A DNA stretch of 32,000 nucleotides from Thermosulfurimonas dismutans (lineage in GTDB: Bacteria > Desulfobacterota > Thermodesulfobacteria > Thermodesulfobacteriales > Thermodesulfobacteriaceae). The stretch's first letter is position 1; each line of letters starts with the position of its first letter. The stretch lies in assembly GCF_001652585.1 (NCBI RefSeq), contig NZ_LWLG01000001.1:120001-152000 (forward strand). The letters are read 5' to 3'. Of this stretch, positions 20,916 to 30,156 are shown in pieces. Both the position numbers and the translations under genes were made by a program. Under the pieces are notes generated by a model. It was not told where the DNA came from. It was given only the letters and a program-made list of their open reading frames with translations, and made no database searches.

Positions 20916-21212
20916 TTGGCCGAAAGGCTTATCGAATTCAATTTTGCAGGAAACAGCTTTACCTTCCGGGCCAATCTCCCGGAAGATGAAATAGAGGCTA
21001 TTTTGAAGTATTTGGAAGAAAAAAAACAGAGGCTCAACGGCCAAAAGAAACTTTCGCCTTTAAAACAGGCGGTGCTCATGTTATTAGAGGTGGCCTCGGA
21101 TTTAGTAAAACTTGAGAAGGAGCATCGTCTTCTCTCGGAGAAGATAGGGAGAGAAGCTATAAGGCTTAGAGAAACTATAGATCGGGAGCTAGAATGCCTG
21201 GGGTGTGCGTGA
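20916..21212 (+). CDS. zapA: cell division protein ZapA-like
   Basis: LIEFNFAGNSFTFRANLPEDEIEAILKYLEEK is a ZapA-like N-terminus followed by a C-terminal coiled coil. TTG start at 20916. Confidence 0.65.
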   Translation: MAERLIEFNFAGNSFTFRANLPEDEIEAILKYLEEKKQRLNGQKKLSPLKQAVLMLLEVASDLVKLEKEHRLLSEKIGREAIRLRETIDRELECLGCA

Positions 21213-21371
21213 TTGGCCTTGAAGCCCGCCGAGGCAACATTAATCAAAGAGGGGGATTCCTCTCCATCCTGGTGCAAGCTCCGGTGAATCTCACCGGAGA
21301 AGCCGAAGGGATGGACGAATCCCCCACCTTAGGCCAACGGTCCTCGAAGCGGGCCGGCTAACACGGCACCC
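21203..21371 (+). ncRNA. ssrS: 6S RNA candidate
   Basis: An extended closing stem pairs 21203-21234 with 21342-21371. A symmetric central bubble has 16 nt on each strand (21235-21250 and 21326-21341). The internal helices are GGGGGATTC/GAATCCCCC and CCATCC/GGATGG, and the apical hairpin is CTCCGGTGA-atc-TCACCGGAG. G-U pairs favour the plus strand. The position just after zapA matches the zapA-ssrS synteny known in other bacteria. Confidence 0.65.
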
Positions 21372-21437
21372 CGGGTTCCTTTTCCTTTTAATTCCCTCCT
21401 GTTTCCTTCCTGCGGAAAAAATAAAGGAGGTTCTAAT

Positions 21438-27668: not shown

Positions 27669-27690
27669 AAAATCTGTTATAAAAGATTTT
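27669..27690. promoter_or_regulatory. 7-8-7 inverted repeat AAAATCT-gttataaa-AGATTTT overlapping a TATAAA box just upstream of arsR (candidate autoregulatory operator)
   Basis: Perfect 7-bp arms at 27669-27675 and 27684-27690. TATAAA lies at 27678-27683. Confidence 0.4.
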
Positions 27691-27693
27691 GAC

Positions 27694-27987
27694 GTGGGAG
27701 GAAAGGGGCCCTTGAATCAGCTAACGCTCTTCTTCAAAACCCTTGGGGACGAAAACCGTCTGAAGATCCTTTACGAGTTGCAAAAGGAAAAAGAACTCTC
27801 CGTAGGTGAACTGGTAGAAAGGCTGGAGATCTCCCAGCCGCTAGCATCCCATCATCTGAGGGAACTAAAGATGTCCGGACTGGTAACAACCAGAAAAAAA
27901 GGACCCTACGTCTTCTATCGCCTTAAAAATCCCCGAATCTTTGAACTGATAGCCCTAGCCCAATCCATACTGGAGGAGCAAGCATGA
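27694..27987 (+). CDS. ArsR/SmtB-family HTH regulator lacking any Cys
   Basis: FKTLGDENRLKILYEL...SVGELVERLEISQPLASHHLRELKMSGLV. The start is ambiguous: GTG at 27694, or TTG at 27712, which has GGAGG 10 nt upstream. Confidence 0.85.
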   Translation: MGGKGPLNQLTLFFKTLGDENRLKILYELQKEKELSVGELVERLEISQPLASHHLRELKMSGLVTTRKKGPYVFYRLKNPRIFELIALAQSILEEQA

Positions 27988-28427
27988 AATCGAGACTCAA
28001 GCATCTCCTCAAGGAGGCCTCCCTGGAGGAAATGAAAGAAGCCCTATTTTTCCTTCTTTCTCAAATTTACGCCCTCCTCGACGAAAAGGAACAGCAAACC
28101 TTCTTCCTGGAAATGTTTAAAGGCGAGGAGGGTAAGGTCCCTTCCATGGTATATTACTGACTGGCCAAGTGTTTCGACGCGGGCGTGGACCCGCGTTCAG
28201 TTTGTCGGGGCATAGTTTCAGCGGTAGGCGAAAAGGAAAGTCTTCCGGAAGAAGTCCCTGAATCCCTGAAACTCCTTTTCGAGGAATGGTTAGACGAACT
28301 TACCGAGGAGGCTCGTCGAATTACTGCTCAAAGAGCCCCTCTGTCCACCCCAGAGCTAGCGAAATACTTACGTATCTCTAAAGAAGGTGCGGAATACATT
28401 AGAGAACGCCTTAAAAGAATCTCTTGA
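27984..28427 (+). CDS. candidate selenoprotein: 147-codon read-through ORF (in-frame TGA = Sec59, motif YY-U-LAKC) with an HTH-like C-terminus
   Basis: The ATG at 27984 (GGAGGA 6 nt upstream, ATGA overlap with the arsR stop) opens a 58-codon frame ending at TGA 28158-28160. The same frame stays open for 88 more codons, which the track shows only as a GTG-started ORF at 28185. Those codons contain no ATG, and the 28185 GTG has no SD upstream. A hairpin follows the TGA. Confidence 0.62.
28176..28197 (+). promoter_or_regulatory. SECIS-like hairpin 15-16 nt after TGA 28158
   Basis: (G)ACGCGGG-CGTGGA-CCCGCGT(T). This gives 7 Watson-Crick pairs plus a closing G-U, and the loop contains GU/GG. Confidence 0.55.
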
Positions 28428-28575: not shown

Positions 28576-28648
28576 TAGATAAAAATACATTGATACATTA
28601 AAATGAGAAAGACCTTCTTAAACAAAACCGGTTGATGTCACCCAAAAG

Positions 28649-28666
28649 GTTCCCCAGTAGGGGAGC
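28649..28666 (+). promoter_or_regulatory. hairpin GTTCCCC-AGTA-GGGGAGC, 13 nt after in-frame TGA 28633 (possible third SECIS)
   Basis: 7-bp stem including one G-U, with loop AGUA. It sits between an ATG at 28603 and the GTG at 28687, which are in the same frame. Confidence 0.35.
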
Positions 28667-28686
28667 AAGCTTCCGAAAGAAAAAAG

Positions 28687-29382
28687 GTGCACTGTTCGAT
28701 TTGCGGTCAGCCTTTGATTTATCTTACCAAAGAAAGAAAAGAAAAATGCTTCTATTGCAAACAAGAAAAATCAGCCTATGTCGTATGCCCTGAAAACCAT
28801 TTTGTCTGCGACGACTGTCACGGGAACGAAATAAAAGCGGCCTTAAAACAAGAAGCATTCAAGGCTCAGACCCCCGACCCGATAAAACTATCTCTTCTTT
28901 GGCTTAAAAAGTACCCCTTCCCCATGCTAGGGTGTGAACATGCCTATTTAGCGGCGAGCTCATTATTAGGATCTCTGGTAGCTGCCGGTTTTAGCCTTTC
29001 GAAAGGAGACCTGGAAGAGGTGTTCTCCCGAATAGACCTCCAGGCTAGAGGTGGCTTTTGCGGGCTTACTGGCATTTGCGGCATAGTGCCAGCCCTAGGA
29101 GCCTCTCTCGCCATCCTTAACAGTTCACACTGCGGAACTGACCGAGAACAACGCGAAGTTATGGAACTTACAAGTGACCTCCTTAAGAAATTTGCGGAGT
29201 TAACCGGTCCTAGCTGTTGTAAAGCCTATCTTTGGGCAGGCTTGGAGGTTGTCACCAAAAGAATCAAGGCTTTTTATCCTCAGGTTAACCTCAGAACTTC
29301 CTCTCCCCTTTGCTTCTTCTCAAAGACGCATCCTCACGGTTGCAGACAAGAAAAGTGTCCATACTTTAACACGTTTAAATAA
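28687..29382 (+). CDS. Cys-rich protein with N-terminal zinc-ribbon (CxxC...CxxC...CPxxHxxCxxCH); resembles DUF5714 from memory
   Basis: MHCSICGQPL...CFYCKQE...CPENHFVCDDCHG, then GGFCGLTGICG, GPSCCKAY and a C-terminal HGCRQEKCPYF. The GTG start has a poor SD. A possible N-terminal extension reaches ATG 28603 through TGA 28633. Confidence 0.7.
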   Translation: MHCSICGQPLIYLTKERKEKCFYCKQEKSAYVVCPENHFVCDDCHGNEIKAALKQEAFKAQTPDPIKLSLLWLKKYPFPMLGCEHAYLAASSLLGSLVAAGFSLSKGDLEEVFSRIDLQARGGFCGLTGICGIVPALGASLAILNSSHCGTDREQREVMELTSDLLKKFAELTGPSCCKAYLWAGLEVVTKRIKAFYPQVNLRTSSPLCFFSKTHPHGCRQEKCPYFNTFK

Positions 29383-29403: not shown

Positions 29404-29724
29404 ATGAAACTAGGAATCATTCTTACAACCAAAGAACCCGAAAAGGCCTGGAATGCCATGCGACTGGCAAACTTTGCCCTCAAAGCTGGGGACGAGGTCA
29501 AGGTCTTTTTAACAGGAGAGGGCGTAGAAGCCTCGGAAGTGGCTGATGATAAGTTCAACATCAAACAAGAGATGAACAAGTTTCTAGAAGGGGGAGGCCA
29601 GATTCTGGCCTGTGGCACCTGTCTAAAATTACGCCACAAAGAGGCCTCGGAGATCTGCCCCCTTTCCACCTTGGAGGATCTTTATAGGTTAATTCTTCTC
29701 TCGGAAAAAGTTTTGACCTTTTAG
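29404..29724 (+). CDS. cytoplasmic DsrE/TusD (YchN-fold)-like protein, Cys form (paralog 2)
   Basis: MKLGIILTTKEPEKAWNAMRLANFALKAGDEVKVFLTGEGV...GGQILACGTCLKLRH. AAGGAGG lies 6 nt upstream and there is no signal peptide. Confidence 0.85.
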   Translation: MKLGIILTTKEPEKAWNAMRLANFALKAGDEVKVFLTGEGVEASEVADDKFNIKQEMNKFLEGGGQILACGTCLKLRHKEASEICPLSTLEDLYRLILLSEKVLTF

Positions 29725-29754: not shown

Positions 29755-30156
29755 ATGCGTGTTCCCAAATGGATCTTAGGATTCTGGTTGGTAGGCTGTC
29801 TCCTTTTATGGACTGGGGATCTTAAGGCCGACGAAGGTCGAAAGCTCCTCCTAGTGATCACCACCAACGAAACGGAAACGGTCTGGCAGGCTCTAAGACT
29901 ATCTAATTTTGCAATCTCTCAAGGTGACGAAGTGCGCATCTACCTTACCGGGAAAGGGGTTGAGCTCCTCAAAATGGACAATAGCCCTTTAGATGTAGCC
30001 CAAAAACTTGAAAGTTTTTTGAAAAATGGAGGCGAAGTCTATGGTTGAAAAAAGGCCCTTAAGATGCACGGTGTGCATTCCGAGAAAGTAAAACCTGCGG
30101 GCAAGAAGGCGTTTTACCAGATGATCTGGGAAAGTGAGAAAGTCCTGGTCTATTAA
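29755..30156 (+). CDS. exported DsrE/TusD-fold selenoprotein candidate (paralog 3; TGA 30046-30048 = Sec98 replacing the active-site Cys)
   Basis: The track ORF stops at TGA 30046. The same frame continues KKALKMHGVHSEKVKPAGKKAFYQMIWESEKVLVY to TAA 30154-30156. Gapless alignment to paralog 2 places the TGA on the first Cys of ACGTC. The post-TGA residues L, K, P and SEKVL are conserved with the paralogs. A hairpin follows the TGA. The ATG at 29755 has AAGGAGG upstream, and MRVPKWILGFWLVGCLLLWTGDLKA is signal-peptide-like. Confidence 0.82.
30064..30078 (+). promoter_or_regulatory. SECIS-like hairpin ATGCAC-GGT-GTGCAT, 15 nt after TGA 30046
   Basis: Perfect 6-bp stem with apical GGU. A possible lower stem CTT/GAG lies beyond an internal loop (30058-30084). 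Confidence 0.6.

What the first reader, a model, noticed from the sequence alone, without database searches (positions are those of the whole stretch)
27984..28427. ArsR-coupled small ORF reads through TGA into an ATG-less 88-codon frame: candidate Sec-containing HTH protein (YY-U-LAK-C)
A 58-codon ORF starts at ATG 27984, which has GGAGGA 6 nt upstream and overlaps the arsR stop as ATGA. At 58 codons it is too short to appear in the supplied track. It ends at TGA 28158. The next 88 codons are open in the same frame (28161-28424) and contain no ATG at all. The only alternative start, GTG 28185, lies inside a strong hairpin and has no Shine-Dalgarno site, unlike nearly every other gene here. 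The hairpin (G)ACGCGGG-CGTGGA-CCCGCGT(T) begins 15-16 nt after the TGA. The fused product would be MKSRLKHLL...GKVPSMVYY-U-LAKCFDAGVDPRSVCRG...LSTPELAKYLRISKEGAEYIRERLKRIS. That gives a U-x3-C redox or metal-binding-like motif plus a C-terminal segment resembling a helix-turn-helix. I do not recognise this as a described selenoprotein family.
Basis: seen in the sequence. Interest (0 to 1): 0.8.

Follow-up and report, generated by a model that had tools for sequence, protein, structure and literature searches.

The report
Unannotated TsoA-like selenoprotein gene
The "two small ORFs" behind the ArsR gene are one 147-codon gene whose in-frame UGA encodes selenocysteine; it is a divergent thermophile branch of the TsoA selenoprotein family described in 2025, so it is real but not a new family.

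Summary
The window is Thermosulfurimonas dismutans, where public annotation keeps only an 80-aa GTG-started fragment.

The fused 147-aa product matches NCBIfam NF045695 ("LULAXC motif selenoprotein TsoA") end to end across the TGA: E 1e-27, 96.8 bits, below the 170-bit equivalog cut-off. The upstream ArsR matches the TsoR model.

In 90 homologous genes from about 80 species the aligned codon is TGA 89 times and never Cys. True terminators of the same genes are TGA 36, TAA 33, TAG 15. The peptide after the TGA is conserved through synonymous changes.

The hairpin 28176-28197 meets all four bSECIS rules. It is frozen at synonymous sites: 0 of 7 codons vary, against 18 of 22 nearby.

A second selenoprotein gene (DsrE-like, TGA 30046) lies in the same cluster.

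This branch reads YY-U-LAKC and lacks TsoB and TsoC. Its C-terminus is a three-helix HTH without a wing.

Sec-free relatives carry a Met-rich segment instead and also always follow a TsoR-like ArsR gene. This suggests a thiophilic-ligand-binding partner of a Cys-free repressor, which is inference only.

Verdict: a real, unannotated variant of a known family.

The parts
27669..27690 (+). 22-bp palindrome AAAATCTGTTA|TAAAAGATTTT containing a TGTTATAAA extended -10-like core. Candidate promoter/operator of the tsoR-tsoA unit (inferred).
   Evidence: the repeat finder. The TGTTATAAA core is also upstream of tsoR in L009. No binding test was possible.
27694..27987 (+). tsoR-like ArsR/SmtB-family regulator gene. 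The ORF runs from GTG 27694; the likely start is TTG 27712, after GGAGGA 27697-702. The protein has no cysteine.
   Evidence: NCBIfam NF033788 91.4 bits (cut-off 55). NF045707 TsoR 87 bits (cut-off 115). Pfam HTH_5. Cys-free in 5 of 6 thermophile-branch orthologs.
27972..27977 (+). Shine-Dalgarno GGAGGA for tsoA, 6 nt before the ATG.
   Evidence: Read from the sequence.
27984..28427 (+). Single tsoA-like selenoprotein CDS: 147 codons (M1...Y58-U59-L60...S147) plus the terminal TGA. The start overlaps the tsoR stop (ATGA).
   Evidence: Translation. NF045695 TsoA match aa 8-145 to profile 4-142/144, E 1.4e-27. Full-length alignment with canonical TsoA puts U on the family's TGA column.
28158..28160 (+). 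UGA read as selenocysteine (U59) in the motif SMVYY-U-LAKC.
   Evidence: TGA in 89 of 90 homologous genes, never Cys, TAA or TAG. Flanking peptide invariant, with synonymous changes.
28170..28172 (+). Cys63 codon (U-x3-C partner).
   Evidence: Invariant Cys in 84 of 84 distinct sequences, using both TGC and TGT.
28176..28197 (+). bSECIS-type hairpin: 8-bp stem GACGCGGG/CCCGCGUU, loop CGUGGA (28184-89). The loop starts 23 nt after the UGA.
   Evidence: Fold. Meets the four bSECIS constraints quoted in PMC13188914. Invariant in 6 distinct thermophile-branch sequences: 0 of 7 hairpin codons vary synonymously against 18 of 22 neighbouring conserved codons, Fisher p=2e-4.
28203..28205 (+). Cys74 codon in GVDPxxxC. 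It is the only Cys shared by the Sec branch and the Met-rich Sec-free relatives.
   Evidence: Invariant column in alignments A2 and A6.
28260..28421 (+). C-terminal acidic long helix plus two helices (aa 93-146). This is a three-helix HTH-like domain with no wing.
   Evidence: AlphaFold model of aa 60-147, pLDDT 81 and 83-94 over this part. Foldseek superposes about 42-48 residues on the HTH domains of FapR, DeoR, Lrp/AsnC, Z-alpha and a sigma factor (SigF in 1l0o), rmsd about 1-1.4 A for most, prob up to 1.0, E 0.2-2. Weak hits to sigma70-ECF at profile positions 104-158.
28687..29382 (+). Downstream Cys-rich DUF5714 gene. It matches the N-terminal half of the 'metal-binding double selenoprotein MbdU' model; no Sec codon is supported in this copy.
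   Evidence: NF045648 258 bits (cut-off 600), profile 40-268/468. Pfam DUF5714 E 3e-35. The upstream in-frame TGA 28633 is not supported as Sec.
29404..29724 (+). DsrE-family gene (Cys form, motif ACGTC).
   Evidence: Pfam DsrE 41.9 bits.
29755..30156 (+). Second selenoprotein gene: a DsrE-like protein whose hydrophobic N-terminus looks like a signal peptide. Sec codon TGA 30046-48 (GGEVYG-U-KKALKMHGV), hairpin AUGCAC-GGU-GUGCAU 30064-78, stop TAA 30154-56.
   Evidence: Translation. Pfam DsrE 35.7 bits for the fused product. U aligns with the first Cys of the paralog's ACGTC. The TGA, the downstream peptide and the hairpin are conserved in L001, L009 and L010. A cytoplasmic DsrE-like Sec gene also follows tsoA in L002.

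Best explanation
Positions 27984-28427 are one gene for a 147-aa selenoprotein. It is a thermophile-branch homolog of TsoA.

How it is made:
- Translation starts at ATG 27984, coupled to the stop of the upstream ArsR-type gene tsoR.
- At UGA 28158 the hairpin 28176-28197 acts as a bacterial SECIS, so SelB and Sec-tRNA(Sec) insert selenocysteine instead of terminating (inferred from sequence).
- Translation ends at TGA 28425.

What the product looks like:
- It is all-helical.
- It carries a U59-x3-C63-x10-C74 cluster.
- This is followed by an acidic helix and a three-helix HTH-like C-terminus.

Most likely role (inferred, not shown): it is the thiophilic-ligand-binding partner of the Cys-free repressor TsoR. 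The ligand would be a soft metal or metalloid, or a reactive sulfur or selenium species. Together the pair would control or serve the adjacent DUF5714 and DsrE-like genes, one of which is itself a selenoprotein.

Confidence about 0.9 applies to 'one Sec-recoded TsoA-like gene'. The sensor-partner role stands at about 0.35.
For: - **Family match.** The TsoA HMM match spans the TGA. Canonical members score 187-220 bits and this branch 95-97 bits on the same model.
- **Codon use.** TGA sits at the aligned column in 89 of 90 genes. Terminal stops are a mix of TGA, TAA and TAG.
- **Coding constraint after the TGA.** The peptide LAKCFDAG between the TGA and the GTG is invariant despite AAG/AAA, TGC/TGT and TTT/TTC changes.
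- **SECIS.** The hairpin fits the bSECIS rules and has suppressed synonymous variation, p=2e-4. The canonical branch has its own hairpin at the same place. That hairpin is 99% paired, with a GC-to-AU compensatory pair (58 against 19 sequences) and an invariant AGGUG loop.
- **Standard code.** TGA is used as an ordinary stop by tsoR and by tsoA itself.
- **Sec use in this organism.** A second conserved Sec gene lies in the same cluster. T. dismutans is listed as having a Sec-type MccSep with a SECIS-like element (PMC13510729).
- **Role: pairing with the regulator.** tsoR is adjacent in 82 of 82 canonical loci and in all thermophile loci. TsoR lacks conserved Cys.
- **Role: Sec-free relatives.** Met-rich relatives share only Cys74 and also directly follow a TsoR-like ArsR gene in 5 of 5 contexts from different phyla.
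- **Role: fold.** The C-terminus is HTH-like.
Against: - No protein-level evidence exists: no 75Se labelling, no mass spectrometry.
- selA, selB, selD and tRNA-Sec are not in this window and could not be searched in the genome.
- The hairpin shows conservation but no covariation within the thermophile branch. Its shuffle z-score is modest, -1.3 to -2.0.
- The score is below NCBIfam's equivalog cut-off, and TsoB and TsoC are absent.
- The functional role rests only on gene neighbourhood, residue patterns and a short fold match with non-significant E-values. The central Sec region of the models has low pLDDT.
- The ligand is unknown. Neighbourhood clues point both to metals (HMA ATPase, ZIP, ars genes, MbdU-like) and to sulfur transfer (DsrE, rhodanese, TauE).
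Confidence: 0.85

Rival explanations
1. There are two independent small genes: a 58-aa protein ending at a genuine TGA stop, and an 80-aa protein started at GTG 28185. This is how public annotation has it.
For: Gene callers annotate it this way in T. dismutans, T. marina and many metagenomes. A GTG exists at 28185.
Against: - GTG 28185 has no SD and lies in the hairpin loop.
- The 8 codons between the TGA and the GTG are under amino-acid-level purifying selection.
- The 'stop' is TGA in 83 of 84 distinct sequences, while real stops vary.
- The frame is always continuous.
- One HMM covers both halves.
Confidence: 0.03
2. The gene is a pseudogene, or the TGA is a sequencing or assembly error in a once-continuous gene. 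The ancestral codon would have been TGC/TGT or TGG.
For: One homolog (L059) has AGA at this codon. JGI translations show W there.
Against: The same TGA appears in independent isolates and MAGs of about 80 species. No TGC, TGT or TGG was seen. The W entries are TGA translated under an alternative code, shown by the DNA of L006-L008.
Confidence: 0.01
3. The gene model is the same (a Sec-containing TsoA-like protein), but the protein is not a regulator's partner. It would be a carrier or chaperone that hands a metal, sulfane sulfur or selenium on to DsrE-like proteins here, or to TsoB and TsoC in the canonical operon. The HTH-like end would serve only as a protein-interaction module.
For: - The neighbours are sulfur or metal handling proteins: DsrE-like with Sec, DUF5714/MbdU-like, TauE, and rhodanese-DsbD-thioredoxin TsoB.
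- U-x3-C on one helix resembles carrier or redox motifs.
- The HTH match has weak E-values and no wing.
Against: - The only universally linked gene is the ArsR-type regulator, not any carrier or acceptor.
- Met-rich relatives often sit with only the ArsR gene and unrelated neighbours.
- TsoR lacks sensory Cys.
Confidence: 0.3
4. UGA 28158 is decoded partly as a stop. A 58-aa N-terminal peptide would then be a functional product when selenium is scarce, and the full protein would be made only when Se is available. This would be a Se-status switch.
For: Sec insertion is generally inefficient (established knowledge). The N-terminal 58 aa form two confident helices in the canonical model.
Against: There is no evidence for an independent function. 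The N-terminal part is the least conserved region.
Confidence: 0.1

Closest known systems
TsoA, 'LULAXC motif selenoprotein' (NCBIfam NF045695; Tso = three selenoprotein operon; Haft & Tolstoy 2025 as cited in PMC13188914)
   Same: - Full-length homology of about 30% identity.
- Sec at the same alignment column.
- ULAxC core and GVDPxxxC with the same Cys.
- Acidic LFExWLxEL helix and C-terminal HTH-like end.
- Sits directly downstream of a TsoR-type ArsR gene.
- A SECIS hairpin lies at the same distance from the UGA.
   Different: - Scores 96.8 bits against the 170-bit cut-off; canonical members score 187-220.
- The motif is YY-U-LAKC-FDAG rather than HL-U-LAEC-MGEG, and no ATG follows the motif.
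- No TsoB or TsoC in the window or in any of 6 related loci. DsrE-like selenoprotein and DUF5714 genes follow instead.
- TsoR is short (about 91-97 aa against 133-153).
- The hairpin is longer and more GC-rich: -13.5 against -7.2 kcal/mol.
Met-rich, Sec-free TsoA-like proteins (unnamed; P0011, P0141-P0199; some labelled 'FeoC-like' or 'winged HTH' by their sources)
   Same: - Same C-terminal domain and invariant P70, C74, L98, F99, W102 and E109.
- The TsoA HMM matches over the full length at 67-72 bits.
- Always directly downstream of a TsoR-like ArsR gene, 5 of 5.
   Different: - No Sec and no U-x3-C. Instead they carry repeated MMxxMMG / MSxEEK Met-rich segments.
- They have an extra C-terminal tail (GKIxL...) that could form a wing.
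- They are found in several phyla (Bacteroidota, Bacillota, Aminicenantes, Thermodesulfobacteriota).
ArsR-ArsD pair of ars operons (own knowledge, not tested here)
   Same: A small Cys-bearing second protein is encoded right after an ArsR-family repressor. It acts on the same operon as a metalloid-binding chaperone or secondary regulator.
   Different: ArsD has a thioredoxin-like fold with vicinal Cys pairs. It has no Sec and no HTH, and there is no sequence similarity. The analogy is functional only.
E. coli fdhF-type bacterial SECIS / bSECIS consensus model (PMC13188914, Fig. 2 legend)
   Same: The hairpin lies inside the coding region just 3' of the UGA. It has a 6-nt loop reading C-G-U-G-G-A, which fits N1-G-[G|U]-N-N2-N. 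It has an 8-bp stem, a 23-nt spacing, and MFE below -7.5.
   Different: No sequence similarity to fdhF. No bulged U was identified. SelB binding is untested. No Rfam family matches.

Membership tests
TsoA (NCBIfam NF045695, equivalog) | HMM match over the whole protein, continuous across the recoded UGA | tested here: met
   aa 8-145 match profile positions 4-142 of 144, E 1.4e-27.
TsoA (NCBIfam NF045695, equivalog) | Score at or above the curated cut-off (170 bits) | tested here: not met
   96.8 bits. T. marina scores 94.6 and L002 96.2. Canonical members score 187-220.
TsoA (NCBIfam NF045695, equivalog) | In-frame UGA at the family's Sec column | tested here: met
   U59 aligns with the TGA, or mistranslated W, of canonical members. 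TGA in 89 of 90 genes.
TsoA (NCBIfam NF045695, equivalog) | L-U-L-A-x-C motif | tested here: inconclusive
   The U-L-A-K-C core is present. The residue before U is Tyr, not Leu (YYULAKC), in all 10 thermophile-branch genes.
Tso operon (three selenoprotein operon) | TsoR-type ArsR/SmtB gene immediately upstream | tested here: met
   Adjacent with an ATGA overlap. NF045707 scores 87 bits, below the 115 cut-off. The generic ArsR model scores 91.4, above its 55 cut-off.
Tso operon (three selenoprotein operon) | Co-operonic selenoproteins TsoB (rhodanese/DsbD, UxxxxU) and TsoC (NEPxGxxU) | tested here: not met
   tblastn with L006 TsoB and TsoC finds nothing in the 32-kb window or in L001, L002 and L009-L012. 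They are found in 62 and 57 of 82 canonical loci. The rest of the genome could not be searched.
Bacterial SECIS (consensus model quoted in PMC13188914) | 3-9 nt apical loop and 4-16 bp upper stem | tested here: met
   6-nt loop, 8-bp stem.
Bacterial SECIS (consensus model quoted in PMC13188914) | G in the first two loop positions (N1-G-[G|U]-N-N2-N pattern) | tested here: met
   The loop reads CGUGGA: N1=C, then G, U, G, N2=G, A.
Bacterial SECIS (consensus model quoted in PMC13188914) | 16-37 nt between the UGA and the apical loop; MFE <= -7.5 kcal/mol | tested here: met
   23 nt between A28160 and C28184. MFE -13.5 kcal/mol for the hairpin alone.
Bacterial SECIS (consensus model quoted in PMC13188914) | Binds SelB and directs Sec insertion | not testable with these tools
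   Indirect support only: synonymous-site freezing, p=2e-4.
Selenoprotein (general) | The host has Sec machinery (selA, selB, selC, selD) | not testable with these tools
   None of these genes is in the window. Indirect support comes from a second conserved Sec gene in the window and from T. dismutans TDIS_RS01570 being listed as a Sec-type MccSep (PMC13510729).
Selenoprotein (general) | Cys-containing homologs align Cys with the UGA | tested here: not met
   0 Cys in 90 genes. The Sec-free relatives have a Met-rich segment at this place. This is unusual but not disqualifying.
Winged helix-turn-helix | Three-helix HTH core | tested here: met
   Helices at aa 93-116, 122-129 and 133-146. They superpose on Lrp/AsnC, DeoR, FapR and Z-alpha HTH domains at about 1.0-1.4 A over 42-48 residues, prob up to 1.0, but E 0.2-2.
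Winged helix-turn-helix | Beta-hairpin wing after helix 3 | tested here: not met
   The protein ends one residue after helix 3, and no strands are predicted.
DsrE-like selenoprotein (for the neighbour gene 29755-30156) | DsrE domain with Sec aligned to the active-site Cys; UxxC motif | tested here: inconclusive
   Pfam DsrE scores 35.7 bits, above the 22.7 cut-off. U aligns with the first Cys of the paralog's CGTC. The motif here is U-K-K-A, with no second Cys.

The most novel reading that the evidence does not exclude
TsoR-TsoA, together with the wider ArsR plus Met-rich TsoA-like pairs, is a two-protein regulatory switch. The ArsR-type repressor has no sensory cysteines of its own. A separate small HTH-bearing subunit supplies the ligand site, either Sec/Cys/Cys or a Met cluster plus Cys. 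TsoA would then be the first selenoprotein acting as a transcriptional co-regulator or sensor. In this sulfur-disproportionating thermophile it would gate a DsrE-like selenoprotein module.
Probability: 0.25. Interest if true: 0.75.

Novelty: new variant of a known kind. Interest (0 to 1): 0.42.

Why it matters
**Annotation.** T. dismutans, T. marina and hundreds of Desulfobacterota genomes carry this gene split into 55-58-aa and roughly 72-93-aa fragments labelled 'hypothetical'. Some fragments are even mislabelled 'F420-0:gamma-glutamyl ligase'. The thermophile branch falls below the NCBIfam cut-off, so current pipelines will keep missing it, along with the DsrE-like selenoprotein next to it.

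**Biology.**
- The thermophile branch shows that the conserved unit is TsoR-TsoA, not the three-selenoprotein operon.
- No Cys form exists.
- The Sec-free relatives swap the Sec/Cys motif for Met-rich repeats while keeping the ArsR partner.

Together these observations give a testable hypothesis for a family whose function is unknown: a thiophilic-ligand sensor or handler working with a Cys-free ArsR repressor. They also point to tractable cultured organisms (T. dismutans, T. marina) in which to test it.

Tried and rejected
- The fused protein (U to C) could not be handed to the search of protein representatives. It was therefore not submitted to structure prediction either. I used the 88-aa post-TGA window sequence and a canonical full-length member instead.
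- **Input format.** 'U' and '*' are not accepted by align_proteins, so C was substituted.
- **Primary paper not held.** Haft & Tolstoy 2025 is not in the library. What is said about Tso rests on NCBIfam names and the review PMC13188914.
- **Locus search.** Alignment A2, which included the Met-rich relatives, was too divergent for the search for related loci. A3 worked.
- **Sequence search of solved structures.** Only weak Lrp/AsnC HTH hits and a low-complexity artefact came back.
- **Rfam.** No RNA family matches at the hairpin.
- **A Sec codon in the MbdU-like gene: rejected.** The candidate was ATG 28603 plus TGA 28633. A TGA also occurs in L009, but the flanks are unconserved and the MbdU HMM does not extend to it.
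- **Genetic-code reassignment of TGA: rejected.** TGA terminates tsoR and tsoA themselves.
- **Classic ArsR alpha-3 CxC sensing by TsoR: rejected for this branch.** TsoR here has no Cys.
Full report
**1. Observation**

- ATG 27984 overlaps the stop of the upstream ArsR-type gene as ATGA and has GGAGGA (27972-77) 6 nt upstream.
- The ORF reaches TGA 28158-60 after 58 codons.
- The same frame is open for 88 more codons (28161-28424), contains no ATG, and ends at TGA 28425-27.
- The only ATG/GTG/TTG start downstream of the TGA is GTG 28185, inside the loop of the hairpin GACGCGGG/CGTGGA/CCCGCGTT (28176-28197).
- The hairpin alone folds at -13.5 kcal/mol at 37 C and is still predicted to fold at 74 C, at -4.3.

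**2. Organism and current annotation**

The 80-aa GTG-started fragment is 99% identical to a 'hypothetical protein' of Thermosulfurimonas dismutans. Only two other database proteins were found by the word-indexed search, both 81-aa C-terminal fragments. In T. marina and in four metagenome contigs, gene callers also report an ArsR gene, a 55-57-aa ORF and an 81-aa ORF. In all of them the two small ORFs are in one frame, separated only by TGA. The most conserved stretch of the whole protein straddles that TGA: GEEG[RK]VPSMVYY-TGA-LAKCFDAGVDPRSVC.

**3. It belongs to a described family**

The fused product (U written as C) matches NCBIfam NF045695, 'LULAXC motif selenoprotein TsoA'. The match covers aa 8-145 against profile 4-142/144, at E 1.4e-27 and 96.8 bits. 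This is below the curated equivalog cut-off of 170.

The upstream regulator matches NF045707, 'ArsR/SmtB-type metalloregulator TsoR', at 87 bits (cut-off 115). It also matches the generic ArsR/SmtB model at 91.4 bits (cut-off 55).

The review PMC13188914 lists TsoA (LULAxC), TsoB (rhodanese/DsbD fusion, UxxxxU), TsoC (NEPxGxxU), TsoX, TsoY and MbdU. It credits them to Haft & Tolstoy 2025 and explains Tso as 'three selenoprotein operon'. The primary paper is not in the held library.

**4. Evidence that the TGA is Sec**

*Homologs.* An exhaustive HMMER search with the 88-aa post-TGA sequence found mostly 72-88-aa fragments, plus one 152-aa protein reading ...SSMVHL-W-LAECMGEGVDP.... Searching with that protein gave more than 1000 relatives. 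Most are 86-93-aa fragments. Thirteen more are full-length JGI entries of about 139-167 aa, and all carry W at this position. The DNA of canonical loci shows that the W is TGA.

*Codon counts.* A scan of one genome per species found 245 relatives, of which 80 loci were kept. All are from Thermodesulfobacteriota or 'delta proteobacteria'. Across all 90 gene copies in hand, the aligned codon is TGA 89 times and AGA once. It is never TGC, TGT, TGG, TAA or TAG. Among 84 distinct sequences the internal codon is TGA 83 times, while the genes' true terminators are TGA 36, TAA 33 and TAG 15.

*Coding constraint.* Immediately after the TGA, Leu, Ala and Cys are invariant but use several synonymous codons: CTG/CTT/CTA/CTC, GCC/GCG/GCA/GCT and TGC/TGT. 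The 'spacer' between the TGA and the GTG is therefore translated.

*Standard code.* TGA is an ordinary stop for tsoR and for tsoA itself, so the genetic code is standard.

**5. The SECIS**

The hairpin fits all four constraints of the bacterial SECIS consensus quoted in PMC13188914.
- The loop has 6 nt (allowed 3-9) and the stem 8 bp (allowed 4-16).
- The loop CGUGGA fits the pattern N1-G-[G|U]-N-N2-N.
- There are 23 nt between the UGA and the loop (allowed 16-37).
- MFE is below -7.5 kcal/mol.

In six distinct thermophile-branch sequences the seven hairpin codons (D-A-G-V-D-P-R) show no synonymous change. By contrast, 18 of 22 neighbouring amino-acid-invariant degenerate codons do vary (Fisher p=2e-4).

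The canonical branch has a different hairpin at the same place: UGGGCGA/AGGUG/UCG(A)CCCA. It is 99% paired in 78 sequences, against 12-43% when the partners are slid. It has an invariant loop and one GC-to-AU compensatory pair, 58 against 19 sequences.

Two weaknesses remain. There is no covariation within the thermophile branch, and the shuffle z-scores are only modest, -1.3 to -2.0. The thermophile hairpin is much more stable than the canonical one, -13.5 against -7.2 kcal/mol. This fits growth at about 74 C (own knowledge of the species description).

**6. Sec use by this organism**

No tRNA-Sec or sel gene lies in the window, and the genome could not be searched. Two indirect lines support Sec use.

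*A second selenoprotein gene 1.6 kb downstream.* It is a DsrE-like protein whose hydrophobic N-terminus looks like a signal peptide.
- Coordinates: ATG 29755, TGA 30046, TAA 30154.
- Its U aligns with the first Cys of ACGTC in the adjacent Cys paralog.
- Its TGA, the downstream peptide KKALxMHGV...YQMIWES and the hairpin AUGCAC-GGN-GUGCAU are conserved in T. marina, a Thermosulfurimonas MAG and a Thermodesulfatator MAG.
- A cytoplasmic DsrE-like Sec gene follows tsoA in L002 as well.

*Published record.* PMC13510729 lists T. dismutans TDIS_RS01570 among Sec-containing MccSep representatives with a SECIS-like element.

**7. How this copy differs from canonical TsoA**

- *Identity.* It is about 30% identical to canonical members.
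- *Score.* The thermophile branch (window, T. marina, L002) scores 95-97 bits on the model, against 187-220 for canonical members.
- *Motif.* It reads SMVYY-U-LAKC-FDAGVDPRSVC instead of SMVHL-U-LAEC-MGEGVDPTQMC.
- *Operon.* Canonical loci read tsoR-tsoA-tsoB-tsoC. tblastn finds tsoB in 62 and tsoC in 57 of 82 canonical loci, but neither in the window nor in six thermophile-branch loci. tsoR is found in all.
- *Downstream genes here.* After a 260-bp AT-rich gap come three genes. The first is a Cys-rich DUF5714 gene matching the N-terminal half of the MbdU model (258 bits, cut-off 600). The second is a DsrE gene. The third is the DsrE-like selenoprotein gene.

Because a curated cut-off and the operon criterion are not met, I file it as a variant of the TsoA kind rather than as an equivalog member.

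**8. Structure**

An AlphaFold model of aa 60-147 has mean pLDDT 81, rising to 83-94 from aa 93 on. It is all-helical. The last three helices (aa 93-116, 122-129, 133-146) superpose on the HTH domains of FapR, DeoR, Lrp/AsnC and Z-alpha, and less closely on a sigma factor (SigF in 1l0o). For most matches the rmsd is about 1-1.4 A over 42-48 residues, with Foldseek probability up to 1.0. The E-values are only 0.2-2 because the domain is short.

Weak sequence hits agree: sigma70-ECF (profile positions 104-158) and HTH_17 for the window protein, and HTH_24 and FeoC for relatives. The protein ends right after helix 3, so there is no wing.

A full-length canonical model has pLDDT 70. It places the U-x3-C motif within a helix, which would put U and C one turn apart, but the confidence there is low. 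No solved structure is related by sequence.

**9. Clues to function (inference)**

- *The regulator is the constant partner.* The only gene always linked to tsoA is tsoR. In the window the two genes overlap as ATGA.
- *TsoR lacks a Cys sensor site.* TsoR of the thermophile branch has no cysteine. In the canonical branch, 31 of 79 TsoR cores have none either, so TsoR lacks a conserved Cys-based sensing site.
- *Sec-free relatives exist.* They score E 5e-6 to 3e-4 in a 1.8-billion-protein search, and 67-72 bits on the TsoA model over its full length. They replace the Sec/Cys motif with repeated Met-rich segments (MMxxMMG). The only Cys they keep is the one equivalent to C74, together with P70, L98, F99, W102 and E109.
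- *The pairing extends to those relatives.* In 5 of 5 contexts from different phyla, these relatives also lie directly downstream of an ArsR gene whose best NCBIfam hit is TsoR, at 81-87 bits, the same level as the window's TsoR. One of these pairs sits inside an ars-like cluster.

So an ArsR(TsoR-like) plus TsoA-like pair is a conserved two-gene module. Its variable part is a thiophilic ligand-binding segment, either Sec/Cys or Met-rich.

My best guess, at about 0.35, is that TsoA is the ligand-binding partner or co-regulator of TsoR. A carrier or chaperone role, at about 0.3, is the main rival.

The ligand is open. Neighbours point to soft metals and metalloids: an HMA ATPase and ZIP next to a canonical operon, ars genes, and the MbdU-like protein. 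They also point to sulfane-sulfur or selenium transfer: DsrE-like proteins, rhodanese-DsbD-thioredoxin TsoB, and TauE.

A 22-bp palindrome at 27669-27690, overlapping a TGTTATAAA extended -10-like element, is a candidate TsoR operator. It is untested.

**10. Verdict**

The finding is real and the recoding interpretation is very likely right, at about 0.9. The family is already known, since 2025. The window holds an unannotated, divergent thermophile variant without TsoB and TsoC, next to a second unannotated selenoprotein.

Interest is moderate. The annotation should be corrected. The TsoR-TsoA core, the absence of any Cys form and the Met-rich sister family together give a concrete hypothesis for an uncharacterised selenoprotein.

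Noticed in passing
window 29755-30156 (TGA 30046-48; hairpin 30064-78): A second, unannotated selenoprotein gene. It is a DsrE-like protein whose hydrophobic N-terminus looks like a signal peptide, reading GGEVYG-U-KKALKMHGV. U aligns with the first Cys of ACGTC in the Cys paralog at 29404-29724. The TGA, the downstream peptide and the GGN-loop hairpin are conserved in L001, L009 and L010. The motif is U-K-K-A, not the UxxC listed for DsrE-like selenoproteins. The hairpin is predicted to be unfolded at 74 C.
   Followed up: partly
L002 2979-3299: In the metagenome relative, tsoA is followed by a cytoplasmic DsrE-like gene with an in-frame TGA (GGILKG-U-GKLMEIHGV) and then a TauE-family permease. 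A DsrE-like selenoprotein thus accompanies tsoR-tsoA in all thermophile-branch loci that extend far enough.
   Followed up: partly
window 28603-29382: The Cys-rich DUF5714 gene (28687-29382) matches only the N-terminal half of the double selenoprotein MbdU. An in-frame ATG 28603 and TGA 28633 (..KTG-TGA-CHPKG..) lie upstream, and L009 also has an in-frame TGA there. The flanks are not conserved and the MbdU HMM does not extend to it, so Sec is not supported.
   Followed up: partly
window 27669-27690: A 22-bp palindrome AAAATCTGTTA|TAAAAGATTTT lies just upstream of tsoR. It contains a TGTTATAAA extended -10-like core that is also present upstream of tsoR in L009. It is a possible TsoR operator.
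   Followed up: partly
window 27694-27987; L001, L009, L010, L012: The TsoR regulators of the thermophile branch contain no cysteine at all. In the canonical branch, 31 of 79 TsoR cores are also Cys-free. This is unusual for ArsR/SmtB sensors of thiophilic ligands.
   Followed up: partly
L089 5001-5513, L090 5001-5510, L091 5001-5558, L092 4001-4519, L093 4001-4561: There is a Sec-free sister family with extremely Met-rich N-terminal repeats (MMxxMMGxMSxEEK) and the same C-terminal domain. In 5 of 5 contexts across phyla it lies directly downstream of a TsoR-like ArsR gene. In L090 the pair sits in an ars-like cluster with Acr3/SBF, ArsP, an LMW phosphatase and a methyltransferase.
   Followed up: partly
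L059 2620; L066 4178 and 5039: One canonical homolog has AGA (Arg) instead of TGA at the Sec codon. This could be an error, a pseudogene or a true loss. One MAG contig carries two tsoA copies about 860 bp apart.
   Followed up: no
database proteins P0009, P0022-P0034, P0054, P0070 and others: Full-length TsoA entries in JGI metagenomes carry Trp at the Sec position, which is TGA translated under an alternative code on short contigs. Several C-terminal fragments are mislabelled 'F420-0:gamma-glutamyl ligase'.
   Followed up: no
window 21192-21381: A 6S RNA (Rfam RF00013, 77.6 bits) lies on the + strand. The window also holds tRNA-Leu, tRNA-Gly and two tRNA-Gln genes.
   Followed up: no
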